Position numbers and translations under genes: made by a program | In this document: in pieces, positions 1,560-58,161 of the stretch | Layout of the letters: each line of letters starts with the position of its first letter | How positions within the stretch are numbered: the first letter of the stretch is position 1 | The notes under the pieces: generated by a model | The model's database searches: none | Told to the model about the DNA's origin: nothing | Seen by the model: only the letters and a program-made list of their open reading frames with translations | Source of the DNA: Squalus acanthias | Lineage: Eukaryota | Length of the DNA: 64,000 nt | Direction: 5' to 3' | Assembly (NCBI GenBank): GCA_030390025.1 | Contig: CM059432.1 | Location: 9,486,001-9,550,000 of the forward strand

Positions 1560-2573
1560 ATTGCCAGAGATGAGGAGGAATTTCTTCGCTCAGAGGGTTG
1601 TGAATCTTTGGAATTCTCTACCACAAAGGGCTGTGGATGCTGAGTCGTTGAGTATATTCAAGGCTGAGATAGATAGATTCTTGGGGGGAAAAATTCAGCT
1701 GCTTGCGCCTCCCGTTAGCGCCTTAAGAGGGCGCTAATGGGGCGTAAAGCAGCTAACGCCCGGGCGCAGCGCCGCCCACGCCTCCCGAAAAATTCAGCGG
1801 GAGGTTAGCGGCGGCGCCAGCCGGTAGCGCCCTGTGGCGCTGCGCCGCCGGCGATGACGTCATCGCCGTGCGCAGCACCCCGCTCACGCTCCAGCCGCGA
1901 TCTTCAGTCGCGCCCCCTGATTTACCGCCAGACGCTATGTCCGACGGGTTCAGGGAGGCGTACGTGCGGCCGGGGCGGCGATATTTAAAGGGGAGGTGGC
2001 AGGCGGCCATTTTTGTTGCTGGCCGCCTGCCAGCACCTGCCCCCGGCCCCCGTGAAGCCCCCCCACCGTGAAGTGCCAGCTGCGCTCCAAGAGCCCGGCA
2101 CTTCTCTTGAGTGCCGGGCTCTTTTGCCGGCACTCCCGATCCCTGGGGGCCCAGCTGGGCCCCGGTTCGCGCTGCGCAGGGTCCCTCCCCTTTAAGAAGG
2201 GGAGGAAGGCCTGCAATACCGCGGCGCGACGTGCCGCAGCGCCACGCGCCAGGATATTCACTCGCAGCACCCCAAGAGGGATGCGGGGTGCTTCCAGTGG
2301 CGCCCCGCTTCCCTCTTGGGGCGCAACCACTGAAGTACCGGCGCGGGGCCGCTAATTTTTTCGGGGCGCTAAAAGTCGCGCCCCGGCGAGGTTAGCGCCC
2401 CAAATGGGGCGCGACTCAATTTTTACCCCTTGGACTCTAGGGGAATCAAGGGATATGGAGATCAGGCAGGAAAGTGGAGTTGAGGTCGAAGATCAGCCAT
2501 GATCTTATTGAATGGCGGAGCAGGCTCGAGGGGCCGTATGGCCGACTCCTGCTCCTAATTCGTATGTTCTTAT
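1560..2573 (+). mobile_element. CR1 LINE 3' end split by the MITE at 1684-2429
   Basis: GAGATGAGGAGGAATTTCTTC...GATAGATTCTTG|GACTCTAGGGGAATCAAGGGATATGG, then the 3' stem-loop and tail. Confidence 0.85.
1684..2429 (+). mobile_element. Non-autonomous Harbinger MITE (746 bp) related to the element at 22560-26671, in opposite orientation
   Basis: Ends GGGGGAAAAATT and AATTTTTACCCC; TSD TTG (1681-1683, 2430-2432). The first ~85 bp match the reverse complement of 26585-26671, and the other end matches 22560-22610. Interrupts a CR1 3' end. Confidence 0.92.
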
Positions 2574-4101: not shown

Positions 4102-4142
<41 letters not shown>

Positions 4143-4598
4143 GAGAGATAGATAGATAGATAGAGAGACAGAGAGATAGAGAGAGACGGAGAGACAGAGA
4201 GATAGAGAGAGACAGAGAGATAGAGAGAGACAGAGAGATAGATAGAGAGACAGAGAGACAGAGAGATAGAGACAGAGAGATAGATAACGAGATAGAGAGA
4301 TAGATAGAGACAGAGAGAGAGATAGAGAGACAGATAGATAGATAGATAGAGACAGAGATAGATAGAGAGATAGATAGAGAGATAGATAGAGAGGTAGAGA
4401 GATAGATAGAGAGATAGATAGAAAGATAGATAGAGAGAGAGAGGTAGATAGAGAGATAGGTAGAGAGATAGATAGAGAGAGACAGAGAGACAGAGAGACA
4501 GATAGATAGATAGAGACAGAGAGATAGATAAAGAGATAACAACAGAAAACGCTGGAAAAACTCAGCAGGCCAGGCAGCATCCGTGGAGAAAGAAAGAG

Positions 4599-4635
4599 AG
4601 TTAACGTTTCAGGTCGATGACCTTTCGTCAGAACT
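4599..4635 (-). ncRNA. Minimal type I hammerhead ribozyme motif (mirror copy)
   Basis: Exact reverse complement of 4792-4828; sense relative to the cadherin pre-mRNA. Confidence 0.65.
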
Positions 4636-4791
4636 GTGAAGAGCCGGAAATCAAATGGATTTAAGGCCAGAGTAAAGCTGGGAAAAGGGGGAGGGGATAA
4701 AAGAACAAAAGAACTCTCTTGTTCTTTTATCCCCTCCCCCTTTTCCCAGCTTTACTCTGGCCTTAAATCCATTTGATTTCCGGCTCTTCAC

Positions 4792-4828
4792 AGTTCTGAC
4801 GAAAGGTCATCGACCTGAAACGTTAACT
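4792..4828 (+). ncRNA. Minimal type I hammerhead ribozyme motif
   Basis: AGUU CUGACGA A AGGUC-AUC-GACCU GAAA CG UU AACU. Stem I is AGUU/AACU, stem II is 5 bp, with palindromic AACGUU. Confidence 0.65.
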
Positions 4829-5553
4829 CTCTTTCTTTCTCCACGGATGCTGCCTGGCCTGCTGAGTTTTTCCAGCGTTTTCTGTTGTTATTTCGGATTT
4901 CCAGCATCCGCAGTATTTTGCTATCGTAGATAAAGAGATAGATAGATAGATAGAGACAGAGAGATAGATAGAGACAAAGAGATAGAGAGATAGACAGAGA
5001 CAGAGATAGATAAAGAGATAGACAGAGAGATAGACAGAGAGATAGATAAAGAGATAGACAGAGAGATAGATAAAGAGATAGATAGATAGAGACAGAGAGA
5101 CAGAGAGAGAGATAGATAGAGACAGAGAGATAGATAAAGAGATGGATAGATAGAGAGAGATAGATAGAGAGAGAGATAGAGATAGAGAGAGAGATAGAGA
5201 GAGATAGATAGAGAGAAAGAGAGAGAGAGAGACAGAGACAGAGAGGTAGAGAGATAGATAAAGAGATAGATAGATAGAGACAAAGAGATAGATAAAGAGA
5301 TAGATAGATAGATAGATAGAGACAGAGAGATAGATAGAGACCGAGAGATAGATAGATAGAGAGATAGATAGAGACAGAGAGAGAGACAGAGAGACAGATA
5401 GAGAGATAAAGAGATAGACAGAGAGATAGATAAAGAGATAGAGAGATAGGTAGAGAGATAGATAAAGAGAGATAGATAGATAGAGAGAGAGAGACACCGA
5501 AACAGAGAGATAGATAGATAGATAGATAGATAGATACAGAGAGATAGATAAAG

Positions 5554-5584
<31 letters not shown>

Positions 5585-5629
5585 GACAGAGAGATAGATA
5601 GCTAGATAGATAGATAGATGAGATAGTTG

Positions 5630-5669
<40 letters not shown>

Positions 5670-5758
5670 TAGAGATATAGATAGAGAGACAGAGAGATAG
5701 ATAGAAAGATAGATAGAGGGAGATAGAGAGACAGCGAGATAGATAGACAGATAAAGAG

Positions 5759-5792
<34 letters not shown>

Positions 5793-6128
5793 ACAGAGAG
5801 ATAGATAGAGAGAGATAGATAGATAGTGAGAGAGAGATAGATAGAGGGAGACAGAGACACAGAGAGAGAGATAGATAGAGACAGATAGATAGATAAAGAG
5901 ATAGATAGATAGAGACAGAGAGATAGATAAAGAGATAGATAGATAGAGACAGAGAGAGATAGATAGAGAGAGAGATAGATAGAGAGAGAGATAGATAGAG
6001 ATAGAGAGAGAGAGAGAGATAGAAAGAGAGAGATACAGATAGAGATAGAGAGAGAGACAGAGATAGAGAGGTAGAGAGATAGATAGAGAGGTAGAGAGAT
6101 AGATAGAGAGGTAGAGAGATAGATAAAG

Positions 6129-6185
<57 letters not shown>

Positions 6186-6418
6186 CAGAGAGATAGATAG
6201 AGAGATAAAGAGATAGATAGATAGAGACAGAGAGACAGGGAGACAGAGAGACAGAGAGACAGAGAGACAGAGAATGATAAAGAGATAGATAGATAGAGAG
6301 ATATATAGAGAGGTAGAGAGAGAGATAGATAGAGAGGTAGAGAGATAGATAGAGAGGTAGAGAGATAGATAGAGAGATAGATAGAAAGATAGATAGAGAG
6401 AGATAGAGAGATATATAT

Positions 6419-6450
<32 letters not shown>

Positions 6451-7284
6451 GGAGAGACAGAGAGATATATAGATAGAGACAGAGAGACAGAGAGAGAGAT
6501 AGATAAAGAGATAGATAGATAGAGACAGAGAGATAGATAAAGAGGTAGATAGATAGAGACAGAGAGAGATAGATAGATATATAGATAGAGAGGTGGAGAG
6601 ATAGATAGAGAGATAGATAGAATGATAGATAGAGATAGAGAGAGAGGTAGAGAGAGAGAGAGAGGGGTAGAGAGAGAGAGAGAGATAGAGAGATAGAGAG
6701 ATAGATAGAGATAGAGAGATAGATAGAGATAGAGAGAGAGAGAGAGACAGAGAGATAGAGAGAGAGACAGAGAGATAGAAAGACACAGAGATAGAGGGAG
6801 AGATATATAGAGATAGAGAGACAGAGAGACAGAGAGATAGAGAGATAGATAGAGATAGAGAGATCGAGAGACAGAGATATAGAGAGACAGAGATAGATAG
6901 AGAGATAGAGAGATAGAGAGAGATATAGAGAGAGATAGATAGAGAGAGAGATAGAGAGAGAGATAGATAGAGAGATAGAGCTAGAGATAGAGAGATAGAT
7001 TGAGAGAGAGAGAGAGAGATAGATTGAGAGATAGATATATAGAGAGAGACAAATAGATAGAGAGAGAGAGATATATAGATAGATAGAGATAGAGAGAGAG
7101 ATAGATAGAGAGATAGAGAGTGAGATAGATAGATAGAGAGAGACATAGATAGATAGATGGAGAGATAGAGAGAGAGATAAATAGAGATGGAGAGACAGGG
7201 AGAGAGAGAGATAGAGAGATAGATAGATAGAGAGATAGATAGAGAGAGATAGATAGATAGAGATAGAGAGAGACAGTGAGATAG

Positions 7285-7329
<45 letters not shown>

Positions 7330-8386
7330 TAGATAGAGATAGATCGAGAGATAGATAGATAGAGAGAGATAGATAGAGAGACAGATATATAGATAGATAG
7401 AGATAGAGAGATAGATAGATAGAGAGATAGAGAGTGAGATAGAGAGATAGAGAGATAGATAGATAGAGAGATAGAGAGATAGATAGATAGATAGAGAAAT
7501 AGAGTGAGAGAGATAGAGAGATAGAGATAGAGAGAGGTAGAGCGATAGATAGAGAGCGAGATAGATAGAGAGAGATAGAGAGATAGATAGAGAGAGAGAT
7601 AGAGATAGAGAGATTGAGAGAGAGAGAGAGATAGATAGATAGATAGATAGATAGAGATAGAAATAGAGAGATAGAAAGATAGAGATAGATAGATTGATTG
7701 ATTGATTGAATGAATGAATGAATGAATGAATGAATGAGGCTGTGTGGCAATTGCACAATTCCCGACAAAAAAAGCTTCTTAATCTTTACTAGTCACGTGA
7801 TCATATAATCTTAAATTTGATGGGTTAGAGATATCTTTTCACTTGAATAAGAGAGACATTATTTTTAGATTTTTCTCAAAATGCTGCTTCTCTTCACAGC
7901 ACCTGGTAGGCATCAACTTCAACCATCACATAAAGATATCCCAGCGACAATGACCACTTGGCTTGTTGTCTGGTGCTGATTGTGTCTTCGAAATCTCTTG
8001 ATTGTGTCACATGTTTATACTGCAAGAATCTATCCTTCTTTACACACAGGCAAGATTGTCAATAAGTAAAATGACAGTGGAGAGAAAAACGCATTCAATC
8101 AAATATAAGAAAGACTTAGAAAAATACACTCACCCAGATTGAAGGAAGCTGTTCACTTTCCTTTGGGAAGATTATATTCTCTGTCAGTAAAGACTTGCTG
8201 AGGTTTTAGGTTTTTCCCCCGCAATAAGTCAGAGCTGGAGAGACTGACTACACCAGAGCAATGAGATAGAATTGAAGTATGTACCACTAGCAACTTATGG
8301 AAGGAGCCCTGATTGTGATCTTATTGTGTCAGCCGTGGCTCAGTGGGTAGCAGCCTTGCCTCTAAGTCATGAATGGTTGTGGGTTC

Positions 8387-14369: not shown

Positions 14370-15244
14370 GGCCGGAATTTTGCCGGCGCTCAGGGGGCGG
14401 GTTTGGAGACGGGACCGCTGTCAAAATCGCAAATATTGACAGCGGGCGGGAAACCCGCTGTCAACCCGCCTCCAAGCAATCTTCCCGAGTGTTGGGTCCT
14501 CGATTTGCACGTGGACCCGACACCTAGCGGCGGGAAGAGGATTATAGCCACTTACCTGCCTGTTAACAGGTACTTGATACTTGTTAACAGGCTCTTTTTC
14601 AATTTTGCCGCTTCTGCCTCGGGTTCCCCGATGTCCGGACACCACGCCAGGTAAGTGTGGCGTGTTGTGAGTCTGCTGTAGTGTTTCTGCATTGATGACA
14701 GCTGCAGAAGTGGGGTGAAGGATCCAATGCTGCATTGGTGAGTTTCAGAGGTAACAAAATGTTGGGAAAATCATTTTTAATGCACTTACACTTTTCTGTA
14801 TGTAACAAGTTTTGAATTGGATGTCTAGTCCCACCTCATTGGGAGAACCTCTCTCACCAGCGACAGATTGCTTCTGTAACCTCCCCTGCAGCTGCCATCT
14901 GTTCTAGCCTAAGGAGGGAGTCACTGGAGAGCCTGGGTGCAAGAGCTCACCTTTGTACAGTGATTGTCAGTGTTTGCAGCACCTCAATGCTGTCAAACAA
15001 TGAGAAATGAGCTGTCAAACAAATTTGTGCGTGGTCCCTTTAAGAAAACCGGCAGATGATGCGTCGTTAAATGACGTCATCTGACCGGCTTCCTCTTAAT
15101 TGGCCGGCAAGCCTGCAGGGCGGGCTTAACAAGGTCAATCAGGGGAAAATGACATCCGTGAGCCGGATGTAGTTGGGGGCTGGACTGGAATCCAGAAACC
15201 AGCTGACCCGCTCCCAAGCCACACCCATTTACAAAATCGCGGCC
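14370..15244. mobile_element. Internally deleted Harbinger-type element (second family)
   Basis: Ends GGCCGGAATTTT and AAAATCGCGGCC; flanks AAA/ATA (imperfect TSD). Both ends and a Myb-gene remnant (about 14840-15000) are similar to the reverse complement of 42063-44662. Confidence 0.8.
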
Positions 15245-21770: not shown

Positions 21771-22198
21771 TTAAGGGACTTTGGATTTAATGGTGAAGAT
21801 TTAAAGCTATAATTGAAAGATTTGATACAGGGGGTAGACTAACTCTGATGTGGGATTATTGCAGAGAAAACAGGGTCAGATAGCTAACAGCAAGAAAGGT
21901 TATAAATAGTTTTAGAAGCACTGGAAGTCAGCCAAAGTGCGGTGTTGTAACTGAGAAACCAGTAGGCGACAAGAGAGACAGTAACCACAAGTGACAACGT
22001 TGAAAATTAATGTATAATCTATCATTTCAAAACCTGTATGTACTGCCCCTCTACAGTGAGAGTGATATTGTGCTCTGGTTTGTGCTGTGATTAAATTCCC
22101 TTCAGTTCAGTTCCGCAAAGGCTAGCAGAATTCAATTTAGTCAACAAAACCTTCATTCTCACACCTCAGCAGAAGATTTTCCATTTGCCCGGTCTTAC

Positions 22199-22386
22199 CT
22201 TCTGAAGAGCGATGATCCCCTCCTGCGTCTCCTTGTCAGTCGAAATTTTGAGAACGGCAAGGCCATCTCCATCAACGATCCTGTATTCCATTTCAGCGTT
22301 TGGACCAATGTCGGCATCGAGAGCTTTTATCTTAGCAATGGTTGAAGCCACAGGCAAAGATTCAGGCACGTTGTACTGATAAAACC
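22199..22386 (-). CDS. cdh7: Cadherin-7-like coding exon (EC3, N-terminal part), 188 bp
   Basis: ctcgcag|GG TTT TAT CAG...CAG AAG|gtaaga. Translates (R)FYQYNVPESLPVASTIAKIKALDADIGPNAEMEYRIVDGDGLAVLKISTDKETQEGIIALQK. Phase 1/0, joining in frame with both neighbouring exons. The YQYNVPESLPVAS motif is CDH7-like. Confidence 0.93.
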
Positions 22387-22908
22387 CTGCGAGAAAGAAA
22401 GTTAAAAAACGTCATCCACCGAAAATCCACTGCACTCATTTCTTGCGCTGATGAGCGCTCAGGAAGGATGTAGAAATAATCTCGATTTTAACCCCAACAC
22501 GCCCAGCAGTTGCGGGGTGAGCGACGGAAACGAAGAAGGAACAAGACTTAAGAGTCATAGGGGGAAAAATTAGGTCGCGCCCCGTTTGGGGCGCAAATAT
22601 CGTCTGGACGCAAAAATTAGCGCCTGGTGCTAATTATCGCCACTGACTGGAAACTTCACTTTTACCGCCCCGGGAGGTGAGTGGAGCGCTAAATCAGGCG
22701 CTGCACACCTGTCTTAAGGCGCAAAGGCCGAGCAGTGAGGCGCTAACTCAGCGCGCGAGCGCAGCGCAGGTGCTGCCAGTTAGCGAGGGAACACAGACAC
22801 ACTGGTGCCGGCCAGTTCTTAAAGCGGGGGGGCCAACTTGCTCCCCAGCCACACCCTGCTCATTGCAGCCTTGAATCTCGGCCTGGAGAGACCTGTGAAT
22901 CCATTTTG

Positions 22909-24683
22909 ATGCCAAGGATGGAGAGGGTGAGAGAACGAGCTCAGCACTTCACCGAGCGGGCCTTGGATGCTCTGGTTGGCGCGGTGGAGTGCAGAAGATC
23001 TATACTCTTCCCTGAGAGTGGCAGGAGGCCTTTGCCACGCGAGTACAGAAGAGTGTGGAGGGAGGTGGCTCAGAGCGTCTCCTCCAGGAGCATGGTGCCC
23101 AGGACCCATGTTTAATGCCGCAAAAAGTTCAACGACCTCACTCGGGTCGTCAGGGTGAGTGGCTTTTTCTCAATACCTCTCCATCCCTCCATCTCAACCT
23201 CACTCTATGGCCAGAGGGTCTTAAAACCCCAATGCACAACACTCATCCAACACCTATGGCCCTTTCATGAAACACACACACACATTCCACACTTTGCATA
23301 CAGTAAGGGCTATTCACCTATGGGAGGCACATCAGGCAAGACCATGGCTGTATATTTACTCAGATGCTGTCCTTTTTCTTGCAGGCCAAGCTGGCGCATA
23401 ATAGGAGACAGCAGCAATGGACAGGTGGAGGGCGGCCTCAGCTGCAACCCCTCAGCGATCTTGAGGAGCGCGTCCACAGGATTGTGGCAAGCCGGGTGAT
23501 CGGTCCCGTCGCCACTGGAGACGCCGACCCCGTTCTGGACAGCAATGGTAAGGTCATCACCTTTTTGTCCTCTGTCCTTCCACTTGTCCCTCACAACACC
23601 AGCCTTTGACACTTTCAATCCAACTTGCTAACTCGCTGCACTTATTCCTCCCTTACTGCCACCCTGTCCTCACGCTAAAGCCACTCTTGTACCTCCCTGC
23701 TTTCAGATGGTGATTCACCAGCTGAGGAGACAGGCCCTGAAGCTGCCAGTGGGAGTGAAGCTGCAGCCGAGGAGGAAGAGGAAGCCGGAGCATCAGTGCC
23801 ACCCTCTCCCGAGGAAGCCCATGCCCACACTGGGAACACGCCTTCCCTGGAGGGGAGCAGGGGGGAAGGGTCTGATGAGGGTGAAGCTCCAGGACCCAGC
23901 GGGCTGCAGCAACGCCATGGGGGTAGGGAAGAACGGGAGCCTTCTCCCCAGAGGGAGAGTATGCCAGCGACTCCTACTGCAATGGACGCAGAGGAGGAGC
24001 GGCTGATCGCAGAAATGAACACCCAGGCGGTGGGCATGCACACTGAGCTCATGGGTGCAGTGGGAAGGGTGCCCGAATGCATTGAGTCACTGGCAAGGAG
24101 TGTGGAGCACTTCGCTGTAGCACAGGCGGATGCCACACTAATGCTTAGTGCTGCAATTCAGTCACTGACTGCCGTGATCCCATCTCTGACTGCTCTCATG
24201 CAGACTCAGATTGAGGCCACGCGAGCACTGACTGCTGCCAACCTCGATGGTTCGTTCACATGTCCCCGGGGCTCTCACCGCGCCGCAGCAGGCCAGCAAT
24301 CTGTGCTCCAGCAGATTGCTCCGGATGCTGAAGTGCTGCCCCGTGGGAGTGCCAGTGTGTCGGTCGAGCAGGGAGTTGCTGTCCTCTCTCACGATGACAG
24401 CATTCCTGCTGCCAACACTGTCACTTCTCCACTGCACTTGCCACCGCCTGTAGGACAGACTGCTGCCGCCCATGCAGAGTTGGTGCAGTCTGCAGCCGGG
24501 CCCTCCAGGCCCAGAACTGGTCGAGGCCGTCCTTCAGGGGCATCTGCAGTGTCAGGGTCTGACGAGCAGCAGCCTTCCACCAGCCTTGCTGCAGCCACTG
24601 AGGTCCCATTACGGAGGAGCAGTAGGGTTAGAAGGGGGGAAGTGCGCAAGGGAAGGAGATCACCCTCGAAGGGCAAAAAGTAG
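22909..24683 (+). pseudogene. Harbinger Myb/SANT-like DNA-binding protein gene; exons 22909-23154, 23385-23547, 23707-24683; in-frame TAA at 23113-23115
   Basis: Exon 1 gives RAQHFTERALDALV...W.EVA..V...RTHV*CRKKFNDL (trihelix/Myb_DNA-bind_5 pattern). GT-AG introns have compatible phases 0 and 1. Exon 2 has the TGGG motif. Exon 3 has acidic and helical regions and a basic C-terminus. The spliced frame is 461 codons with one stop. Confidence 0.85.
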
Positions 24684-24995
24684 GAGGTGTGACAAAATGC
24701 TGGTCAGTTTTTTATTAAAGGCCGAGGTTCGTGGTCCAACTTTTGTCTAGTGTTTTGGACATTATCTCCAGGTTGTGAGAACCAGTTATGTTAATGACTG
24801 TTTTTTTGTGTTTATTTCTATGAGTTTGTCATGAGGAAATGACACACACAGAGTTTGTAAAATAAATAAGTTTTTGTATTCAAAATATACATGTTTGGTG
24901 TTTGGAATCATTGGTGCCTTGGCTGGCTTAGGGGTTGCGTGCTGGGTTCATTGATGTTGTTAGCAATGGCAGAAGCCATTTCCACAGCAGGGGCC

Positions 24996-26156
24996 CTAGA
25001 AGCGGCTTGCTATCAGCCGTTGACGGACGGCTCTTGCAGTTTCACCATTGTGGGCCGCCCTCCCGCCTTGGTGCTGCTGATGATCATCCTCCTCGTCCTC
25101 TTCCTCCTCTTCCTCCTCCTCCTCTGGTGGTGCTCCAAGGCCTGGTGGCATTGGCTGGGTCCTGACGATTGCCATGTTATGCAACATGCAGCACATAACT
25201 ACGAAGTTGGATACTCGCTCAGGCGAGTACTGCAGGGCTCCTCCAGAATGGTCGAGACAGCGGAACCGTTGCTTCAGCACGCTGATTGTGCGCTCAATGA
25301 TGTTCCTGGTAGCTTGATGGCTCTCGTTGTACCGCAGCTCAGCAGGGGTGTTGGGCGTACGGAGCGGTGTCATCAGCCAGGTGCTCAATGGATACCCCTT
25401 GTCCCCGAGAAGCCAACCAACTGGCTGATGCGGTGCCTCGAAAAGTTCTGCCACAGTAGTCTGGCGCAGGATGAAAGCAGCGTGGCAGCTGCCAGGATAG
25501 TGGGCATTGACAGCGAGTATCAGCTGTCTGTGGTCACAGACCAACTGAACATTCAAGGAATGGAACCCCTTTCTGTTCCGGAATTCCTCGGCATTCTCAT
25601 GTGGAGCACGCAAAGCCACATGCGTGCAGTCAATGGTGCCCTGCACCATGGGGAAGCCCGCTATCCTCGCAAAGCCCAGAGCGCGGTCACGCTGCTTGTC
25701 TAGGGTCATGGGGAAAGAGATGAACTCTCGTCTCCTTTTAAAGAGGGCATTTGTGACCTGCCGGATGCAGCAATGCACCGCGAACTGGGAGATATTGGCG
25801 AGGTCCCCAGCAGCAGCTTGAAATGAGCCAGTAGCATAGAAGTTGAGAGCCACTGTGACCTTCACTGCCACCGACAGAGACGTCCTGGACCTCAGTTGAG
25901 GCTGCAGATCTGGCTGCAGCAGGTGGCAGAGCTCAGTGACCACCTCCTTGCTGAATCGCAGACTTCGCAAACACAGCTCCTCAGACATATGAATGTAGGA
26001 GAGCTGTTCACGATATACCCTGGGAGGGTAAGCTCTCCTGTACATACGCCTATTGGCCCTCCTCCGTCTGGCCATCATTGCCACTCTCTCTCTGCATCTC
26101 TGTGTCCTCCGATTCAGCTGGAGCAGGACGACGCCCCCATTCAGTGCAGCCCCCAT
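24996..26156 (-). CDS. Harbinger DDE transposase (HARBI1-like), 386 aa from ATG at 26156, intronless, uninterrupted
   Basis: N-terminal HTH-type region (LRFSKE...ALNFYATGSFQ...ISQ), FPMVQGTIDCTHV (D), NRKGFHSLNVQLVCD, YPGSCH, LLGDKGYP (D), YNESHQATRNIIERTISVLKQRF (E), CCMLHN, then an acidic tail. Confidence 0.93.
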   Translation of the reverse strand: MGAALNGGVVLLQLNRRTQRCRERVAMMARRRRANRRMYRRAYPPRVYREQLSYIHMSEELCLRSLRFSKEVVTELCHLLQPDLQPQLRSRTSLSVAVKVTVALNFYATGSFQAAAGDLANISQFAVHCCIRQVTNALFKRRREFISFPMTLDKQRDRALGFARIAGFPMVQGTIDCTHVALRAPHENAEEFRNRKGFHSLNVQLVCDHRQLILAVNAHYPGSCHAAFILRQTTVAELFEAPHQPVGWLLGDKGYPLSTWLMTPLRTPNTPAELRYNESHQATRNIIERTISVLKQRFRCLDHSGGALQYSPERVSNFVVMCCMLHNMAIVRTQPMPPGLGAPPEEEEEEEEEDEEDDHQQHQGGRAAHNGETARAVRQRLIASRF

Positions 26157-26671
26157 AGTCTCTTTGCAAGCAAAGTTATGAAGGACAGCAACCAAAGTAC
26201 CAGCGAAGTTAGGATCAGTAGGCAAAACTACCTCACAAAGCGTTGACTCAATGCAGAAGTCTCTCTTTCTCTCTCTCTCCGAATCTCTCTCTCTCTCTCA
26301 GAACGAGTGGTGCAAAAATGTCAACCACAGAAAAAGACAGGAAGAGGCCCCCTTTAAATAGCGCCCCCCCCCCAGCCCCACAGCGATTGATAGCGTTCCA
26401 GTCTTCCGGTCGTTGGATGCGCCAGGCGGTAAGGCAGGGGGCGCCACTCAATTTCCGCTCCGGGGCGCCACAAGGGCGTTGCACCATGGAATGACGTCAC
26501 AATCTGCGCGCGCAGGTGGTCGCGGCGGTAAAGTTTAGCGCCGCCGCACAATGTCTAGTTAAGTTCCCGAGCGGCGCAAACATCGCTGCGCCCGGGCGCT
26601 AGCGGCTTTGCGCCCCATTAGCGCCCTCTTAAGGCGCTAACGGGAGGCGCAACCAACTGAATTTTTCCCCC

Positions 26672-27040
26672 ATAGAGTTATACAGCACAGAAAGAGGCCC
26701 TTCGGCCCATCAGGTCCACGCCGGCCATCAAGCCCTGTCTATTCTAATCCCATTTTCCAGCACTTGGTCCGTAGCCTTGTATGCTATGGCATTTCAGGTG
26801 CTCATCTAAATGCTTCTTGAATGTTGTGAGGGTTCCTGCCTCTACCACCCTTTCAGGCAGTGAGTTCCAGATTCCAACCACCCTCTGGCTGAAAAAGTTT
26901 TTCCTCAAATCCCCTCTAAACCTCCTGCCCCTTACCTTGAAACTAGGCCTCCTGGTGATTGACCCCTCTACTAAGGTGAAAAGTTCCTTTCTATCTACTC
27001 TATCTATGCCTCTCATAATTTTGTACACCTCAATCAGGTC
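26672..27040 (-). mobile_element. CR1 LINE 3' end whose tail is the Harbinger target
   Basis: DLIEVYKIMRG...WNSLPERVVEA. The tail continues at 22551-22559 on the far side of the transposon. Confidence 0.88.
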
Positions 27041-27556
27041 CTGTTCCCGCCAGAGACCCACCGACCGCCATTTTAACTCGGGAGCTGACTCTGGTGGAAA
27101 GCAGACCGGCTGGGAAGCAGCAGGTCCCTCATTACTAAATACAATGCAGGCTATCTCTGTAACCGCTTTCAGCCCTACAACCTTCCGAGATCTCTGCGCT
27201 CCTCCAATTCTGGCCTCTTGCGGATCCCCGGATTTTCATCGCTCCACCACAGGCGGCCGTATCTTCAGCTGCCTCGGCCCTAAGCTCAGGAATTCCCTCA
27301 ACAGCCTGCATGTCAGCCGTGGCTGAGTGGGTAGCCCTCTCATCTCCTGAGTCAGACGGTCGTGGGTTCAAAGGTCCCACTCCAGAGACTTGAGCACAAA
27401 AATCCTGGCTGACACTGGCCAATATTTATTGCTCAACCAACATAACAGAAACAAATTATCTGGACATTGTCACAAATCCTACATTGCAAAAGTGACTGCT
27501 CTTCAAAAGTACTTTGTCAGCTGTGAAGTGATTTGGGACGTCCTGAGGTTGTGAAA

Positions 27557-28028
27557 CAAAGAAAGACTTGCATTTCTATAGCGCCTTTAACGACCACCGG
27601 ACATCTCAAAGCACTTTACAGCCAATGAAGTACTTTTGAAGTGTAGTCACTGTTGTAACGTGGGAAACGCAGCAGCCAAATTGCGCACAGCAAGCTCCCA
27701 CAAACAGCAATGTGATAATGACCAGAGAATCTGTTTTTTTGTTATGTTGGTTGAGTGATAAATATTGGCCCCAGGGCACCGGGGAGAACTCCCCTGCTCT
27801 TCTTTGAAATAGTGCCGTGGGATCTTTTACGTCCACCTGAGAGAGCGGACCGGGCCTCGGTTTAACGTCTCATCCGAAAGACGGCACCTCTGACAGTGCG
27901 GCACTCCCTCAGCACTGCACTGGGAGGGTCAGCCTAGCTTTATGTGCTCAAGTTTCTGGAGTGGGACTCGAACCCACAACCTTCTGACTCAGAGGCGAGG
28001 GTGCTACCCACTGAGCCACAGCTGACAC
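27557..28028 (-). mobile_element. SacSINE1-like SINE, full length, nested in the tail of an opposite-strand copy (27311-27556 plus 28029-28060)
   Basis: Reverse complement of the 3239 family. The host tail GTGAAA|GGCGCTATATAAATGCAAG is split around it. Confidence 0.85.
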
Positions 28029-28940: not shown

Positions 28941-31900
28941 AGAGGGTGATCGGAGCGGGCGATCGGAACGGGCGATTAGAGCGGGCGATCGGAGCGGGCG
29001 ATCGGAGCGGGCGATCGGAGCGGGCGATCGGAGAGGGCGATCGGAGAGGGCGATCGGAGCGGGCGATCGGAACGGGCGATCGGAGCGGGCGATCGGAGCG
29101 GGCGATCGGAAAGGGCGATCGGAACGGGCGATCGGAGCGGGCGATCGGAGCGGGCGATCGGAGAGGGAGATCGGAGAGGGTGATCGGAGTGGGAGATCGG
29201 AGAGGGAGATCGTAGAGGGAGATCCGAGAGGGCGATCCGAGAGGGCCATCCGAGAGGGCGATCCGAGCGGGAGATCGGAGCGGGAGATCGGAGCGGGCGA
29301 TCGGAGAGGGCGATCGGAGCGGGAGATCGGAGAGGGAGATCGTAGAGGGTGATCGGAGTGGGTGATCGGAGAGGGCGATCGGAGAGGGAGATCGGAGAGA
29401 GAGGGAGATCGGAGAGGGAGATCGGAGAGGGAGATCGGAGAGGGCGATCGGAGCGGGCGATCGGAGCGGGCGATCGGAGAGGGCGATCGGAGCGGGCGAT
29501 CGGAGAGGGCGATCGGAGCGGGCGATCGGAGCGGGCGATCGGAGCGGGCGATCGGAGCGGGCGATCGGAGCGGGCGATCGGAGCGGGCGATCGGAGAGGG
29601 AGATCGGAGCGGGCGATCGGAGAGGGAGATCGGAGAGGGCGATCGGAGAGGGCGTTCGGAGCGGGCGATCGGAGCGGGCGATCGGAGCGGGCGTTCGGAG
29701 CGGGCGATCGGAGCGGGAGATCGGAGCGGGCGATCGGAGCGGGCGATCGGAGCGGGCGATCGGAGCGGGCGATCGGAGATGGAGATCGGAGATGGAGATC
29801 GGAGCGGGCGATCGGAGATGGAGATCGGAGCGGGCGATCGGAGAGGGCGATCGGAGATGGAGATCGGAGCGGGTGATCGGAGCGGGCGTTCGGAGAGGGC
29901 GATCGGAGCGGGCGATCGGAGCGGGCGATCGGAGCGGGCGATCGGAGCGGGCGATCGGAGCGGGCGATCGGAGCGGGCGATCGGAGCGGGAGATCGGAGA
30001 GGGAGATCGGAGTGGGCGATCGGAGAGGGCGATCGGAGCGGGCGTTCGGAGCGGGAGATCGGAGCGGGAGATCGGAGCGGGCGATCGGAGCGGGCGATCG
30101 GAGCGGGCGATCGGAGCGGGCGATCGGAGCGGGCGATCGGAGCGGGCGATCGGAGAGGGCGATCGGAGCGGGCGATCGGAGAGGGCGATCGGAGCGGGCG
30201 ATCGGAGAGGGCGATCGGAGCGGGCGATCGGAGCGGGCGATCGAAGCGGGCGATCGAAGCGGGCGATCGGAGAGGGAGATCGGAGCGGGCGATCGGAGCG
30301 GGCGATCGGAGAGGGAGATCGGAGCGGGCGATCGGAGAGGGAGATCGGAGAGGGCGATCGGAGAGGGAGATCGGAGAGGGCGATCGGAGCGGGCGATCGG
30401 AGCGGGCGATCGGAGCGGGCGATCGGAGCGGGCGATCGGAGCGGGAGATCGGAGCGGGCGATCGGAGCGGGCGATCGGAGAGGGCGATCGGAGAGGGCGT
30501 TCGGAGCGGGCGATCGGAGCGGGCGATCGGAGCGGGCGTTCGGAGCGGGCGATCGGAGAGGGAGATCGGAGCGGGTGATCGGAGCGGGCGATCGGAGCGG
30601 GCGATCGGAGCGGGCGATCGGAGCGGGCGATCGGAGCGGGCGATCGGAGATGGAGATCGGAGATGGAGATCGGAGCGGGCGATCGGAGATGGAGATCGGA
30701 GCGGGCGATCGGAGCGGGCGTTCGGAGAGGGCGATCGGAGCGGGCGATCGGAGCGGGCGATCGGAGCGGGCGTTCGGAGCGGGCGATCGGAGCGGGCGAT
30801 CGGAGCGGGAGATCGGAGCGGGCGATCGGAGCGGGCGATCGGAGCGGGAGATCGGAGAGGGAGATCGGAGTGGGCGATCGGAGAGGGCGATCGGAGCGGG
30901 CGTTCGGAGCGGGAGATCGGAGCGGGAGATCGGAGCGGGCGATCGGAGCGGGCGATCGGAGAGGGCGATCGGAGCGGGCGATCGGAGCGGGCGATCGGAG
31001 CGGGCGATCGGAGCGGGCGATCGGAGCGGGCGATCGGAGAGGGCGATCGGAGCGGGAGATCGGAGAGGGCGATCGGAGAGGGCGATCGGAGCGGGCGATC
31101 GAAGCGGGCGATCGAAGCGGGCGATCGAAGCGGGCGATCGGAGAGGGAGATCGGAGCGGGCGATCGGAGCGGGCGATCGGAGAGGGAGATCGGAGCGGGC
31201 GATCGGAGAGGGAGATCGGAGAGGGCGATCGGAGAGGGAGATCAGAGAGGGCGATCGAAGCGGGCGATCGGAGCGGGCGATCGGAGCGGGCGATCGGAGC
31301 GTGCGATCGGAGAGGGAGAAAGGAGCGGGCGATCGGAGCGGGCGATCGGAGCGGGCGATCGGAGAGGGCGATCGGAGTGGGCGTTCGGGGCGGGCGATCG
31401 GGGCGGGCGATCGGAGCGGGCGTTCGGAGCGGGCGATCGGAGAGGGAGATCGGAGCGGGTGATCGGAGCGGGCGATCGGAGCGGGCGATCGGAGCGGGCG
31501 ATCGGAGCGGGCGATCGGAGATGGAGATCGGAGATGGAGATCGGAGCGGGCGATCGGAGATGGAGATCGGAGCGGGCGATCGGAGAGGGCGATCGGAGAT
31601 GGAGATCGGAGATGGAGATCGGAGCGGGTGATCGGAGCGGGCGTTCGGAGAGGGCGATCGGAGCGGGTGATTGGAGCGGGCGATCGGAGCGGGCGTTCGG
31701 AGCGGGCGATCGGAGAGGGAGATCGGAGCGGGTGATCGGAGCGGGTGATCGGAGCGGGCGATCGGAGCGGGCGATCGGAGCGGGCGATCGGAGCGGGCGA
31801 TCGGAGCGGGCGATCGGAGCGGGTGATCGGAGATGGAGATCGGAGATGGAGATCGGAGCGGGTTATCGGAGAGGGCGATCGGAGATGGAGATCGGAGATG

Positions 31901-34900
31901 GAGATCGGAGTGGGCGATCGGAGAGGGCGATCGGAGCGGGTGATCAGAGAGCGCGATCGGAGCGGGTGATCGGAGAGCGCCATCGGAGCGGGCGATCGAA
32001 CAGGTGATCAGAGATGGAAATCGGAGATGGAGATCGGAGTGGGCGATCGGAGATGGAGATCGGAGCGGGCGATCGGAGAGGGCGATCGGAGATGGAGATC
32101 GGAGATGGAGATCGGAGCGGGTTATCGGAGCGGGTGATCGGAGAGGGCGATCGGAGCGGGCGATCGGAGATGGAGATCGGAGCGGGCGATCGGAGCGGGT
32201 TATCGGAGCGGGCGATCGGAGAGGGCGATCGGAGTGGGTGATCAGAGATGGAGATCGGAGATGGAGATCGGAGTGGGCGATCGGAGCGGGTGATCAGAGT
32301 GGGTGATCGGGGAGGGCGCTCGGAGCGGGTTATCGGAGCGGGTGATCAGAGTGGGTGATCGGAGAGGGCGATCGGAGCGGGCGATCGAACAGGTGATCAG
32401 AGATGGAGATCGGAGAGGGCGATCGGAGTGGGTTATCGGAGCGGGCGATCGGAGCGGGTGATCGGAGAGGGCGATCGAACAGGTGATCAGAGATGGAGAT
32501 CGGAGAGGGCGATCGGAGCGGGTTATCGGAGCGGGCGATCGGAGCGGGTTATCGGAGCGGGTGATCGGAGCGGGTGATCGGAGAGGGTGATCGGAGCGGG
32601 TGATCGGAGCGGGTGATCGGAGAGGGTGATCGGAGCGGGCGATCGGAGCGGGCGATCGGAGAGGGTGATCGGAGCGGGCGATCGGAGAGGGCGATCGGAG
32701 AGGGCGATCGGAGCGGGCGTTCGGAGCGGGCGATCGGAGCGGGCGATCGGAGCGGGCGATCGGAGCGGGTGATCGGAGTGGGCGCTCGGAGTGGGCGATC
32801 GGAGCGGGCGATCGAACAGGTGATCAGAACGGGTGATCAGAGTGGGTGATCGGAGCGGGTGATCGGAGCGGGTGATCGGAGAGGGTGATCGGAGCGGGCG
32901 ATCGGAGCGGGCGATCGGAGAGGGTGATCGGAGCGGGTGATCGGAGAGGGCGATCGGAGAGGGCGATCGGAGAGGGCGATCGGAGCGGGCGATCGGAGCG
33001 GGTGATCGGAGTGGGTGATCGGAGAGGGCGTTCGGAGCGGGCGATCGGAGAGGGAGATCGGAGAGGGCGTTCGGAGTGGGCGATCGGAGAGGGCGATCGG
33101 AGCGGGCGATCGGAGCGTGCGATCGGAGAGGGCGATCGGAGCGGGTTATCGGAGCGGGCGATCGGAGCGGGCGATCAGAGCGGGTGATCGGAGATGGAGA
33201 TCGGAGAGGGCGATCGGAGCGGGTGATCGGAGCGGGCGATCAGAGCGGGCGATCGGAGAGGGCGATCGGAGCGGGTGATCGGAGAGGGCGATCAGAGCGG
33301 GCGTTCGGAGAGGGCGATCGGAGCGGGTGATCGGAGCAGGCGATCGGAGCGGGCATTCGGAGCAGGCGATCGGAGCGGGCGATCGGAGCGGGCGATCGGA
33401 GCGGGCGATCGGAGCGGGCGATCGGAGCGGGCGATCAGAGCGGGCGTTCGGAGAGGGCGATCGGAGCGGGTGATCGGAGCGGGTGATCGGAGAGGGCGAT
33501 CGGAGCGGGCGATCGGAGCGGGCGATCGGAGCGGGCGATCGAACAGGTGATCAGAGATGGAGATCGGAGAGGGCGATCGGAGCGGGTTAACGGAGCGGGC
33601 GATCGGAGCGGGTGATCGGAGAGGGCGATCGAACAGGTGATCAGAGATGGAGATCGGAGAGGGCGATCGGAGCGGGTTATCGGAGCGGGCGATCGGAGCG
33701 GGTTATCGGAGCGGGCGTTCGGAGCGGGCGATCGGAGCGGGCGATCGGAGCGGGCGTTCGGAGCGGGCGATCGGAGCGGGCGATCGCAGAGGGCGATCGG
33801 AGAGGGCGATCGGAGTGGGCGATCGGAGAGGGAGATCGGAGAGGGAGATCGGAGAGGGTGATCGGAGTGGGAGATCGTAGAGGGAGATCGGAGAGGGTGA
33901 TCGGAGTGGGTGATCGGAGAGGGCGATCGGAGAGGGAGATCGGAGCGGGAGATCGGAGCGGGTGATCGGAGCGGGTGATCGGAGAGGGAGATCGGAGCAG
34001 GCGATCGGAGTGGGAGATCGGAGCGGGTGATCGGAGAGGGAGATCGCAGCGGGCGATCGGAGCGGGTGATCGGAGAGGGAGATCGGAGCGGGTGATCGGA
34101 GCGGGTGATCGGAGAGGGAGATCGGAGCAGGCGATCGGAGCGGGCGATCGGAGCGGGCGATCGGAGAGGGCGATCGGAGAGGGCGATCGGAGCGGGTTAT
34201 CGGAGCGGGTGATCGGAGCGGGCGATCGGAGCGGGTGATCGGAGAGGGAGATCGGAGCAGGCGATCGGAGCGGGCGATCGGAGCGGGCGATCGGAGCGGG
34301 CGATCGGAGAGGGCGATCGGAGCGGGTTATCGGAGCGGGCGATCGGAGCGGGCGATCGGAGCGGGCGATCGGAGCGGGCGATCGGAGAGGGCGATCGGAG
34401 CGGGCGATCGGAGAGGGAGATCGGAGCGGGCGATCGGAGAGGGCGATCGGAGCGGGCGATCGGAGAGGGCGATCGGAGCGGGCGATCGGAGCGGGAGATC
34501 GGAGAGGGAGATCGGAGTGGGCGATCGGAGCGGGCGATCGGAGCGGGCGTTCGGAGCGGGAGATCGGAGCGGGAGATCGGAGCGGGCAATCGGAGCGGGC
34601 GATCGGAGATGGAGATCGGAGCGGGCGATCGGAGCGGGCGATCGGAGCGGGCGATCGGAGCGGGCGATCGGAGAGGGCGATCGGAGCGGGCGATCGGAGC
34701 GGGCGATCAGAGCGGGCGTTCGGAGCGGGAGATCGGAGAGGGCGATCGGAGCGGGCGATCGGAGATGGAGATCGGAGCGGGCGATCGGAGCGGGCGATCG
34801 GAGCGGGCGATCGAAGCGGGTGATCAGAGAGGGAGATCGGAGAGGGCGATCGGAGCGGGCGATCGGAGCGGGCGATCGAAGCGGGTGATCGGAGAGGGAG

Positions 34901-36999
34901 ATCGGAGCGGGCGATCGGAGCGGGCGATCGGAGAGGGCGATCGGAGCGGGCGATCGAAGCGGGCGATCGGAGCGGGCGATCGAAGCGGGCGATCGGAGAG
35001 GGAGATCGGAGCGGGCGATCGGAGCGGGCGATCGGAGAGGGAGATCGGAGCGGGCGATCGGAGAGGGAGATCGGAGAGGGCGATCGGAGAGGGAGATCAG
35101 AGAGGGCGATCGAAGCGGGCGATCGGAGCGGGTGATCGGAGCGGGTGATCGGAGCGGGTGATCAGAGAGGGAGATCGGAGCGGGCGATCGGAGCGGGTGA
35201 TCGGAGCGGGCGATCGGAGAGGGCGATCGGAGTGGGCGTTCGGAGCGGGTGATCGGAGCGGGCGATCAGAGCGGGCGTTCGGAGCGGGCGATCGGAGAGG
35301 GATATCAGAGCGGGTGATCGGAGCGGGTGATCGGAGCGGGTGATCGGAGCGGGCGATCGGAGCGGGTGATCGGAGCGGGTGATCGGAGCGGGCGATCGGA
35401 GATGGAGATCGGAGATGGAGATCGGAGCGGGCGATCGGAGATGGAGATCGGAGCGGGCGATCGGAGAGGGCGATCGGAGATGGAGATCGGAGATGGAGAT
35501 CGGAGCGGGTGATTGGAGCGGGCGTTCGGAGAGGGCGATCGGAGCGGGCGATCGGAGCGGGTGATCGGAGCGGGCGATCGGAGCGGACGTTCGGAGCTGG
35601 CGATCGGAGAGGGAGATCAGAGCGGGTGATCGGAGCGGGTGATCGGAGCGGGCGATTGGAGCGGGTGATCGGAGAGGGCGATCGGAGCGGGCGATCCGAG
35701 AGGGCGATCGGAGAGGGCGATCGGAGAGGGCCATCGGAGAGCGCGATCGGAGCGGGTTATCGGAGAGGGCGATCGGAGAGGGTGATCGGAGAGGGCGATC
35801 GGAGCGGGCAATCGGAGAGGGCGATCGGAGCGGGTGATCGGAGCGGGCGATCGGAGCGGGTGATCGGAGAGGGCGATCGGAGCGGGTGATCGGAGCGGGC
35901 GATCGGAGCGGGTGATCGGAGAGCGCGATCGGAGCGGGCGATCGAACAGGTGATCAGAGATGGAGATCGGAGATGGAGATCGGAGCGGGTGATCGGAGCG
36001 GGCGATCGGAGCGGGCGATCGGAGCGGGCGATTGGAGCGGGTGATCGGAGAGGGCGATCGGAGCGGGCGATCGGAGAGGGCGATCGGAGAGGGCGATCGG
36101 AGCGGGCGATCGGAGAGGGCGATCGGAGCGGGCGATCGGAGCGGGCGATCGGAGCGGGCGATCGGAGAGGGCGATCGGAGCAGGCGATCGGAGCGGGCGA
36201 TCGGAGCGGGCGATCGGAGCGGGCGATCGGAGCGGGTGATCGGAGAGGGCGTTCAAAGCGGGCGATCGGAGAGGGAGATCGGAGTGGGCGTTCGGAGCGG
36301 GCGATCGGAGAGGGCGATCGGAGCGGGCGATCAGAGAGGGCGATCGGAGAGGGCGATCGGAGAGGGCGATCGGAGAGGGCGATCGGAGCGGGTTATCGGA
36401 GAGGGCGATCGGAGAGGGTGATCGGAGAGGGCGATCGGAGAGGGTGATCGGAGAGGGCGATCGGAGCGGGCGATTGGAGAGGGCGATCGGAGCGGGTGAT
36501 CGGAGCCGGCGATCAGAGCGGGTGATCGGAGAGGGCGATCGGAGCGGGTGATCGGAGCGGGCGATCGGAGCGGGTGATCGGAGAGCGCGATCAGAGCGGG
36601 CGATCGAACAGGTGATCAGAGATGGAGATCAGAGATGGAGATCGGAGCGGGTTATCGGAGCGGGCGATCGGAGCGGGCGATCGGAGCGGGCGATCGGAGA
36701 GGGCGATCGGAGCGGGCGATCGGAGCGGGCGATCGGAGCGGGCGTTCGGAGCGGGCGATCGGAGCGGGCGATCGGAGCGGGCGTTCGCAGCGGGCGATCG
36801 GAGCGGGCGATCGGAGAGGGCGATCGGAGAGGGCGATCGGAGCGGGCGATCGGAACGGGCGATCGGAGCGGGCGATCGGAGCGGGCGATCGGAGCGGGCG
36901 TTCGGAGAGGGCGATCGGAGTGGGCGATCGGAGTGGGCGATCGGAGCGGGCGATCGGAGCGGGCGTTCGGAGCGGGCGATCAGAGCGGGCGATCAGAGC
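28941..36999. repeat. 13-bp CpG-rich tandem satellite (GATCGGAGCGGGC)n, about 620 units
   Basis: Directly visible. The 13-aa periodic translations correspond to three units. Confidence 0.98.
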
Positions 37000-57993: not shown

Positions 57994-58161
57994 TGCGGGA
58001 GAAGCGAGGTGGGTTGTCATTGACATCACTGAGAGTGACGGTGATTGATGTAGTCCCAGATAAGCCTCCCATCTGTCCAACCATATCTTTAGCTTGTATA
58101 ACCAGCAGGTAGCGATCCTTGGCCTCCCTGTCCATGTTGGGTAGCGCTGTTCTGATGATTC
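57994..58161 (-). CDS. cdh7: Cadherin-7-like type II cadherin, internal coding exon (end of EC2), 168 bp
   Basis: Minus strand reads tttcag|GA ATC ATC AGA...TCC CGC A|gtaagg. Translates (G)[55 protein letters not shown] with the cadherin DRE and DxNDNPP motifs. Closely resembles vertebrate CDH7 as recalled. Phase 1/1; absent from the ORF track. Confidence 0.93.

What the first reader, a model, noticed from the sequence alone, without database searches (positions are those of the whole stretch)
22560..26671. Near-intact two-gene Harbinger transposon, one base from autonomy, 173 bp from a cadherin exon
Seen: both TIRs, a perfect TSD, an uninterrupted 386-aa DDE transposase, and a spliced three-exon Myb/SANT partner gene that the ORF track fragments. 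Its only visible lesion is TAA at 23113 in RTHV*CRKKFNDL; CAA (Gln) would fit the QCRKK pattern. Known: PIF/Harbinger transposition needs both proteins. Inference: this is a young family, possibly with active copies elsewhere in the genome, and it could be reconstructed with a single reversion. It sits 173 bp upstream of the acceptor of the 188-bp cadherin exon.
Basis: partly seen in the sequence, partly recalled or inferred. Interest (0 to 1): 0.75.

Follow-up and report, generated by a model that had tools for sequence, protein, structure and literature searches.

The report
Decayed shark Harbinger transposon, several lesions
This is a real, full-length copy of a very abundant cut-and-paste jumping gene in a likely shark genome, but besides the stop codon in its helper gene it carries several further changes, one at a key position of its cutting enzyme, so it is likely a dead copy rather than one mutation away from activity, and is ordinary.

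Summary
The anatomy is real: 12-bp TIRs, 3-bp TSD (ATA), a 386-aa DDE_Tnp_4 transposase, a three-exon Myb/SANT gene with TAA at 23113, and 173 bp to a cadherin exon. Reads from three public runs give C at 23113 in 99.9-100% of depth, so the family has CAA as predicted. "One base from autonomy" fails. Of 36 listed in-element differences, 18 are private to this copy, 8 of them CpG decay. Seven are transposase missense changes, including Ala at position 226, where the family has Asp; that Asp is one of seven residues published as conserved across PIF/Harbinger, ISL2EU, Spy and IS5. The copy is about 1.5-1.9% from the family majority, not recent at shark rates. The family is likely present in thousands of copies, with a non-autonomous relative at 1684-2429. 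Both insertions share an AGAGTC|NNA|GA target in CR1-type repeats, NuwaII-like in its C..G flanks. Introns are supported by protein homology, not by reads. No effect on the cadherin is shown. The scan already noted a similar near-intact Harbinger and the CR1-tail preference on other DNA of this genome. Verdict: new member of a known kind.

The parts
22557..22559 (.). Left copy of the 3-bp target-site duplication (ATA), preceded by AGAGTC
22560..22571 (+). Left TIR, 12 bp, starting with five G
22572..22800 (.). Left subterminal region, CpG-rich, with repeated GCGC-core motifs (likely Myb-protein binding sites; inferred)
   Evidence: the motifs are also in the short copy at 1684-2429
22918..23154 (+). 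Myb/SANT-like gene exon 1 (PF13873); likely start ATG 22918; ATG 22909 is private to this copy
   Evidence: three homologues begin MER at this ATG
23113..23115 (+). Premature TAA, codon 66, private to this copy; the family has Gln
23155..23384 (+). Predicted intron 1 (GT..AG, 230 bp, no CpG)
   Evidence: 42 of 59 homologues align across the junction against 3 of 59 for the unspliced control; no junction reads
23385..23547 (+). Myb gene exon 2
23548..23706 (+). Predicted intron 2 (GT..AG, 159 bp)
   Evidence: best of 58 in-frame alternatives by a small margin (1345 against 1324 summed bits), and retention gives stops
23707..24683 (+). Myb gene exon 3 (acidic, low-complexity region, basic C-terminus)
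   Evidence: P0124 aligns over aa 11-455 at 37%, E 3.9e-76
24684..24995 (.). Shared AT-rich 3' region between the convergent genes, with poly(A)-like hexamers on both strands (+ 24714, 24861; - 24711, 24811)
   Evidence: use not tested
24996..26156 (-). DDE_Tnp_4 transposase ORF, 386 aa; D176, D252 and E288 present; at least 7 private missense changes
25479..25481 (-). Codon 226: Ala in this copy, Asp in the family; third residue of the conserved D-K-D-D-P-R-E set
26300..26659 (.). Right subterminal and likely transposase promoter region, CpG-rich (observed/expected 1.06), TATA-like box at 26353
   Evidence: promoter role inferred
26660..26671 (-). Right TIR, 12 bp
26672..26674 (.). Right copy of the TSD (ATA)
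26675..27030 (-). Host repeat that received the insertion in its 3' tail: a CR1-type LINE end (label recalled and from earlier scan notes)
   Evidence: 7 further matches in the window at 66-89%; similar tails at 15244 and 38702
1684..2429 (-). 746-bp non-autonomous relative with the same TIR type and TSD CAA; right end 94% identical over 88 bp, left end 78% over 65 bp
   Evidence: empty paralogous sites at about 63191, 37863 and 59220
22199..22386 (-). Host classic (type II-like) cadherin exon, 188 bp; the element lies in the 35.6-kb intron 22387-57993
   Evidence: (cadherin-8 2a62, E 4.8e-16)

Best explanation
This is a full-length copy of a two-gene Harbinger-type (PHIS, NuwaII-like) cut-and-paste transposon, likely from a shark, that has decayed since insertion: its Myb-like gene has a private stop and its transposase at least seven private amino-acid changes, so it is likely unable to move itself. 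In the working family, by the known mechanism (inferred, not tested here), the spliced Myb-like protein would bind the ends, bring the transposase into the nucleus and onto the TIRs, and the DDE transposase would cut the element out and paste it with a 3-bp duplication. The preferred site is likely a short, partly palindromic motif (here AGAGTC|NNA|GA), which CR1-type LINE ends offer often; this copy landed in such a LINE tail that happens to lie near a cadherin exon. The ends are intact, so proteins from an intact copy could likely still mobilise it in trans.
For: Structure. Transposase: the nearest named relatives are shark and ray 'HARBI1' gene models, best 66%. Decay: 18 of the 36 in-element differences shown are read otherwise in at least 90% of depth in all three runs; 8 of the 18 are CpG transitions (P 7e-5 against 8.8% of bases in CpG); the transposase shows 7 missense and 2 silent changes, near the neutral ratio. 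Position 226: T is read at 25480 in at least 99.97% of depth; 23 of 27 homologues that keep the other six motif residues have Asp, 2 Glu, none Ala; the spacing D176-19-K196-29-x226-25-D252-11-P264-19-R284-3-E288 fits the motif of PMC4122938 exactly. R65, G292 and V321 are also the majority residues in homologues (74 of 95, 82 of 116, 74 of 101). Multi-copy: per-base summed depth is 1.6e5 to over 1e6 against about 4 in the unique flank (X2), and ends are 2-3 times deeper than the interior. Target: a second family member in the window has the same 6 upstream bases and C..G flanks, and one X8 contig (depth 52.8) joins the left end to the same LINE-tail flank in the opposite orientation.
Against: No experiment on the Asp226 position was found, and by spacing it is not one of the catalytic triad, so loss of transposase activity is inferred. 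The catalytic triad and the fold are intact (pLDDT 89), and the copy differs at none of 84 columns that are at least 80% conserved in the raw homologue set, which includes many decayed models. 112 of 152 difference rows were not shown, so the lesion list is a minimum. The runs laid may not be the window's individual or species: the X2 flank differs at 4 of 150 bases. Summed contig depth is not a copy number, as the tool warns. No spliced reads were seen. The target motif rests on 2 sites.
Confidence: 0.8

Rival explanations
1. One reading: the copy is one base from autonomy; the missense changes are tolerated and only the Myb stop blocks transposition.
For: The transposase ORF is open, the triad is present, both ends and the splice signals are intact, and the family has CAA.
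Against: At least 7 private transposase and 3 private Myb missense changes. One removes a residue conserved from bacterial IS5 to Harbinger; three more replace family-majority residues.
Confidence: 0.06
2. The copy is a transposase-only helper: its Myb gene is dead, but its transposase keeps some activity and is complemented by Myb protein from other copies.
For: Open 386-aa ORF, CpG-rich upstream region and TATA-like box. Single-ORF variants are common in sea-krait Harbinger-Snek (PMC8437027, passages).
Against: A226 and six other private missense changes; a near-neutral missense-to-silent ratio shows no selection on this ORF; no expression shown (the one true RNA run laid, from another organism code, holds only the microsatellite).
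Confidence: 0.1
3. The TAA is an assembly error and the Myb gene of this copy is intact.
For: T at 23113 makes up only 0.1% of X2 depth and none in X8 or X6; no read from this exact locus was seen.
Against: The stop is one of at least 18 private changes with a CpG-decay signature, which is biological. A private allele is expected at about this share among thousands of copies. Even if it were an error, A226 would remain.
Confidence: 0.02
4. The insertion matters for the host cadherin, by disturbing the nearby acceptor or by ending transcripts early at the co-directional transposase poly(A) signals.
For: 173 bp from the acceptor; the transposase gene is on the cadherin's strand, with poly(A)-like hexamers at 24811 and 24711.
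Against: The pyrimidine tract and a branch-point-like motif lie in the last 30 or so bases and are intact. The exon joins in frame with its upstream neighbour (donor 57994). The intron is 35.6 kb and full of repeats, and the site is explained by a LINE tail.
Confidence: 0.04

Closest known systems
NuwaII group of the PHIS superfamily (Han et al. 2015, PMC4482050; abstract, background and results read)
   Same: Two ORFs (DDE transposase and Myb/SANT), short TIRs starting GG, about 4-4.7 kb, conserved C and G flanking a 3-bp TSD, and the same 3-bp versus 5-bp ambiguity.
   Different: The TSD cores here are ATA and CAA, not TNA; the TIR is 12 bp against 13-46; no cartilaginous fish is in their species list; tree placement was not tested.
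Harbinger3_DR of zebrafish (Sinzelle et al. 2008; seen only as cited in passages of PMC2836001 and PMC3016246)
   Same: Two-protein vertebrate Harbinger, revived from a consensus; strong palindromic target preference. Its AAACAC-CWG-GTCTTT site shares A at -6 and -4, C at -1, G at +1 and T at +4 with both sites here.
   Different: Its TSD is CWG; this family's sites read AGAGTC|NNA|GA and lie in CR1-type repeats. Sequence identity to it was not measured.
Harbinger-Snek of sea kraits (PMC8437027, passages)
   Same: High-copy vertebrate Harbinger with full-length, single-ORF and short non-autonomous copies, and many intronic insertions.
   Different: There, intact copies, expression and horizontal transfer were shown; here none of these was.
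Shark and ray 'putative nuclease HARBI1' gene models, and domesticated HARBI1/NAIF1/MSANTD genes (PMC9392472, passages)
   Same: Same transposase family; the best hit is 66% identical over 90% (Pristiophorus japonicus model).
   Different: This ORF sits between TIRs with a TSD in a high-copy family and decays neutrally, so it is a transposon copy and not a domesticated gene.

Membership tests
PHIS / Harbinger in the broad sense | DDE_Tnp_4 transposase ORF with catalytic triad | tested here: met
   PF13359 E 5.4e-38; D176 in a strand, D252 just after a strand, E288 in a helix
PHIS / Harbinger in the broad sense | Second gene for a Myb/SANT-like protein | tested here: met
   PF13873 E 6.3e-09; 62 relatives; broken by a stop in this copy
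PHIS / Harbinger in the broad sense | TIRs and a 3-bp TSD | tested here: met
   12-bp TIRs with ATA; short relative with CAA and empty paralogous sites
PHIS / Harbinger in the broad sense | Transposition needs both proteins | not testable with these tools
   known for Ping/Pong and Harbinger3_DR (PMC2836001 passages)
Autonomous (potentially active) Harbinger copy | Both ORFs intact | tested here: not met
   TAA at codon 66 of the Myb gene; the next Met is at aa 219, past the Myb domain
Autonomous (potentially active) Harbinger copy | Full conserved set D-K-D-D-P-R-E (PMC4122938) | tested here: not met
   6 of 7 present; the third is Ala226; the family has Asp
PIF/Harbinger in the strict sense (Han 2015) | TWA target-site duplication | tested here: not met
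   ATA and CAA, 0 of 2 sites on either strand
NuwaI | CWG target-site duplication | tested here: not met
   0 of 2 sites
NuwaII | C and G flanking the 3-bp TSD; TIR starting GG | tested here: met
   C|ATA|G and C|CAA|G, 2 of 2
NuwaII | TNA core of the TSD | tested here: not met
   0 of 2 sites; both end in A; only 2 sites, so 'NuwaII-like', not filed as NuwaII
NuwaII | Placement in the NuwaI/II transposase clade | not tested
   no reference Nuwa transposases were fetched
Domesticated HARBI1-type host gene | Single copy, without TIRs and TSD, under purifying selection | tested here: not met
   TIRs and TSD present, very high depth, 7 missense against 2 silent private changes

The most novel reading that the evidence does not exclude
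The family behind this copy still has intact, active two-gene members in sharks. It inserts with sequence specificity into an AGAGTC|NNA|GA-type site, repeatedly hitting one position in CR1 LINE tails in both orientations, and it keeps a near-identical majority sequence across several species. That would make it a naturally active or easily testable cartilaginous-fish Harbinger with a NuwaII-like but distinct target rule, homing to a harmless repeat.
Probability: 0.2. Interest if true: 0.55.

Novelty: new member of a known kind. Interest (0 to 1): 0.25.

Why it matters
As a single locus it matters little: it is one decayed copy among likely thousands. At family level there is modest value. A 2022 survey found no Harbingers in elephant shark and asked for other cartilaginous fish to be checked (PMC9179366, passages); later genome papers list them only as a RepeatMasker class (PMC8455134, PMC12498223, passages). 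Three searches that named shark with Harbinger or the Nuwa groups returned no family-level description of a shark Harbinger, but Repbase and Dfam could not be searched. A defined family with gene structure, a helper-dependent short relative and a target motif is a useful annotation, and could be a starting point for a site-selective transposon tool if intact copies exist. This copy would be a poor template.

Tried and rejected
Genome-wide copy search: no genome is held. Indexed protein search with Myb exon 1: 0 of 401 candidates passed; the HMMER scan found 62. Splice-junction reads: none. X21 (true RNA, another organism code) laid only on the CT microsatellite; X8 (guessed RNA) has contigs running unspliced through both introns at flat depth and looks like DNA. 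Empty-site test: the one X2 contig on the left flank stops matching at 22550 with 26 unplaced letters and 4 differences in 150, so it is inconclusive; no 22559-to-26675 joint was among the 15 shown of 37. PDB by sequence: no real hit. Foldseek: nothing at E 0.001 or better; the top row is piggyBac transposase, E 0.013, which says nothing on residue 226. Rfam: 0 matches in 21800-27600. Look-up of the transposase DNA in earlier findings: no look-alike, so identity with the family of e1-7789957 is untested. Sinzelle 2008 and Yuan and Wessler 2011 are not held; claims on them are second-hand. Supplements and figures of PMC4482050 and PMC4122938 (family lists, TSD logos, the underlining of the triad) were not seen and could change the Nuwa assignment. 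Rejected: horizontal transfer as a claim (organisms are coded, and slow shark evolution explains the sharing); a domesticated HARBI1 gene; the 5-bp TSD parse as distinguishable from the 3-bp one.
Full report
Observation. The element spans 22560-26671 (4112 bp). Its ends are a perfect 12-bp inverted repeat, flanked on both sides by ATA. A 5-bp parse (CATAG with an 11-bp TIR) fits equally. The minus strand holds an open 386-aa ORF (26156-24996) matching DDE_Tnp_4 at E 5.4e-38. The plus strand holds three GT..AG-bounded exons that join into one frame with a single internal stop, TAA at 23113; exon 1 matches Myb_DNA-bind_5 at E 6.3e-09 when the stop is read as X. The cadherin exon 22386-22199 is 188 bp, with 173 bases between it and the element.

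Host. The best 120 of 338 transposase relatives listed are mostly shark and ray gene models, the best at 66% identity, so the genome is likely a cartilaginous fish; earlier scan notes call it shark-type. The host gene is a classic cadherin: the best single-domain match in PDB is cadherin-8, E 4.8e-16 for the whole sequence. The exon joins in frame with an upstream exon ending at 57994 and leads to a further exon near 2935-2682, so the element sits in a 35.6-kb intron.

Gene model. Of 62 Myb relatives, 59 aligned to the spliced product; 42 of the 59 run across junction 1, 40 of them without a gap near it, against 3 of 59 for a control that reads on into the intron. Junction 2 is the best of 58 in-frame alternatives, by a small margin, and has the clearest splice signals. 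One relative aligns over aa 11-455 at 37%. Gln stands at the stop position in 45 of 59. No read shows either junction: the one true RNA run laid holds only the microsatellite, and the run guessed to be RNA has contigs passing unspliced through both introns. The introns are therefore predicted, the first strongly.

Family. No genome is held, so I used public runs. Of 23 rows listed, 18 hold at least half of the sampled words, from 9 studies and 7 organism codes plus one uncoded row. I laid 4 of the 23. In X2 the unique left flank has depth about 4, while per-base summed depth in the element is 1.6e5 to over 1e6. Allowing for up to 31-fold overcounting gives a rough floor of about 1,400-1,500 copies; the tool warns that this is no copy number, so I say only 'likely thousands'. 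The ends are 2-3 times deeper than the interior, and several joints skip internal parts, as expected for many non-autonomous derivatives. One such relative lies in the window at 1684-2429: 746 bp, same TIR type, TSD CAA, with empty paralogous sites that confirm the duplication.

The lesions. But it is not alone. The tool showed 40 of 152 difference rows; I analysed the 36 inside the element and left out 3 in the right flank and 1 in the microsatellite. Of the 36, 18 are read otherwise in at least 90% of depth in all three runs, and 8 of the 18 are CpG transitions (P 7e-5). In the transposase these are 7 missense changes (positions 6, 21, 65, 152, 226, 292, 321) and 2 silent ones; position 174 is borderline (89-98%). 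In the Myb gene they are the stop, 3 missense changes (10, 25, 91) and 1 silent one. The ATG at 22909 is private too, so the start is likely 22918.

Position 226. Han et al. 2014 (PMC4122938, passages) give a set conserved across PIF/Harbinger, ISL2EU, Spy and IS5: D(19-29)K(29)D(18-40)D(11-19)P(18-28)R(3)E. This protein fits the spacing exactly (19, 29, 25, 11, 19, 3) but has Ala at the third position. Of 120 homologues, 27 keep the other six residues, and of these 23 have Asp, 2 Glu, 1 Ser and 1 a gap. The family reads Asp in at least 99.97% of depth. In the predicted model (pLDDT 89) the residue starts the helix after the third strand. By spacing it is not one of the catalytic triad (my reading; the underlining in the paper was not visible), and I found no mutagenesis of it, so loss of activity is inferred. 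Against my reading, the triad is intact and the copy matches all 84 columns that are at least 80% conserved in the raw homologue set, where decayed models pull column 226 down to 79 of 113.

Age. Small runs that hold the repeat but show no depth on the unique flank hold 55-59% of the words, which corresponds to about 1.5-1.9% divergence from the family majority (a rough inference). The four long, deep X8 contigs differ at 10 of about 970 bases, about 1%. At 7e-10 per base per generation (epaulette shark, PMC10587355, passages) this is roughly 10-27 million generations; the rate has a wide interval and CpG sites run faster. 'Young' holds only in the loose repeat-annotation sense. Whether intact copies survive is open.

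Target. Both insertions in the window are preceded by AGAGTC and followed by GA, with C..G around the TSD; AGAGTC occurs 19 times on both strands of the 64 kb. Both lie in repeats that look like CR1 LINE ends (label recalled, and used in earlier scan notes). One X8 contig joins the element's left end to the same right-flank sequence in the opposite orientation at depth 52.8, which I read as further copies at the same LINE-tail position. This agrees with earlier scan notes on other DNA of this genome (e1-7940590, e1-9989485, e1-7807215; unchecked AI notes, not independent support) and resembles the palindromic preference of Harbinger3_DR (PMC3016246, passage).

Mechanism. Shown here: the anatomy, the lesions, the multi-copy state, the shared target flanks. 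Taken from the literature: both proteins are needed, the Myb-like protein binds the ends and is needed for nuclear entry of the transposase (PMC2836001, passages). Inferred: the stop removes the end of the Myb domain and everything after it (the next Met is at aa 219), the transposase is likely impaired, and the intact ends could still be moved in trans.

Classification and novelty. It works like a two-component Harbinger and meets the broad PHIS features. It fails the TWA (strict PIF/Harbinger) and CWG (NuwaI) TSD tests, and meets the NuwaII flank rule but not its TNA core, on 2 sites (PMC4482050; abstract, background and results read). Harbingers are already listed in whale shark and grey reef shark, sea kraits show the same range of intact, single-ORF and short copies, and revival from a consensus was done for zebrafish Harbinger3_DR. 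The scan has also reported a similar near-intact copy with a broken Myb gene elsewhere in this genome (e1-7789957). Verdict: a real, ordinary, decayed copy; new member of a known kind; interest 0.25.

Noticed in passing
window 1684-2429: 746-bp GC-rich non-autonomous Harbinger relative with TSD CAA, inside a CR1-type repeat in another intron of the same cadherin gene; it has internal inverted repeats and only patchy similarity to the long element beyond its ends.
   Followed up: partly
window 28944-36999: 8-kb GC-rich tandem array of a 13-bp unit, about 620 copies at 88% match, inside the cadherin intron.
   Followed up: no
window 46978-48707: 1.7-kb C-rich array with a 13-14-bp unit (about 127 copies); the other strand is made of G-runs and could form G-quadruplexes.
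   Followed up: no
window 4106-7706: Long purine-rich AG and TAGA microsatellite tracts.
   Followed up: no
window 22896, 24567, 25676 (loose ends): Many contigs in two or three runs leave the window's sequence at these places with a shared other sequence, pointing to related Harbinger subfamilies, one with a different Myb 5' leader but the same ATG-GAG start.
   Followed up: no
   Followed up: no
window 22401-22550 against X2 record 1: The only contig on the unique left flank differs at 4 of 150 bases and has 26 letters that do not continue into the element, a weak hint that this sample lacks the insertion here.
   Followed up: partly
proteins P0004, P0006, P0020, P0025, P0060: Several shark and ray HARBI1-like models from different genera are close to each other and lack both the Asp at 226 and some triad residues; they may be domesticated, catalytically dead Harbinger genes of cartilaginous fish.
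   Followed up: no
window 57994-58151 and about 2935-2682 (minus strand): Two further exons of the host cadherin; exact acceptors were not fixed.
   Followed up: partly
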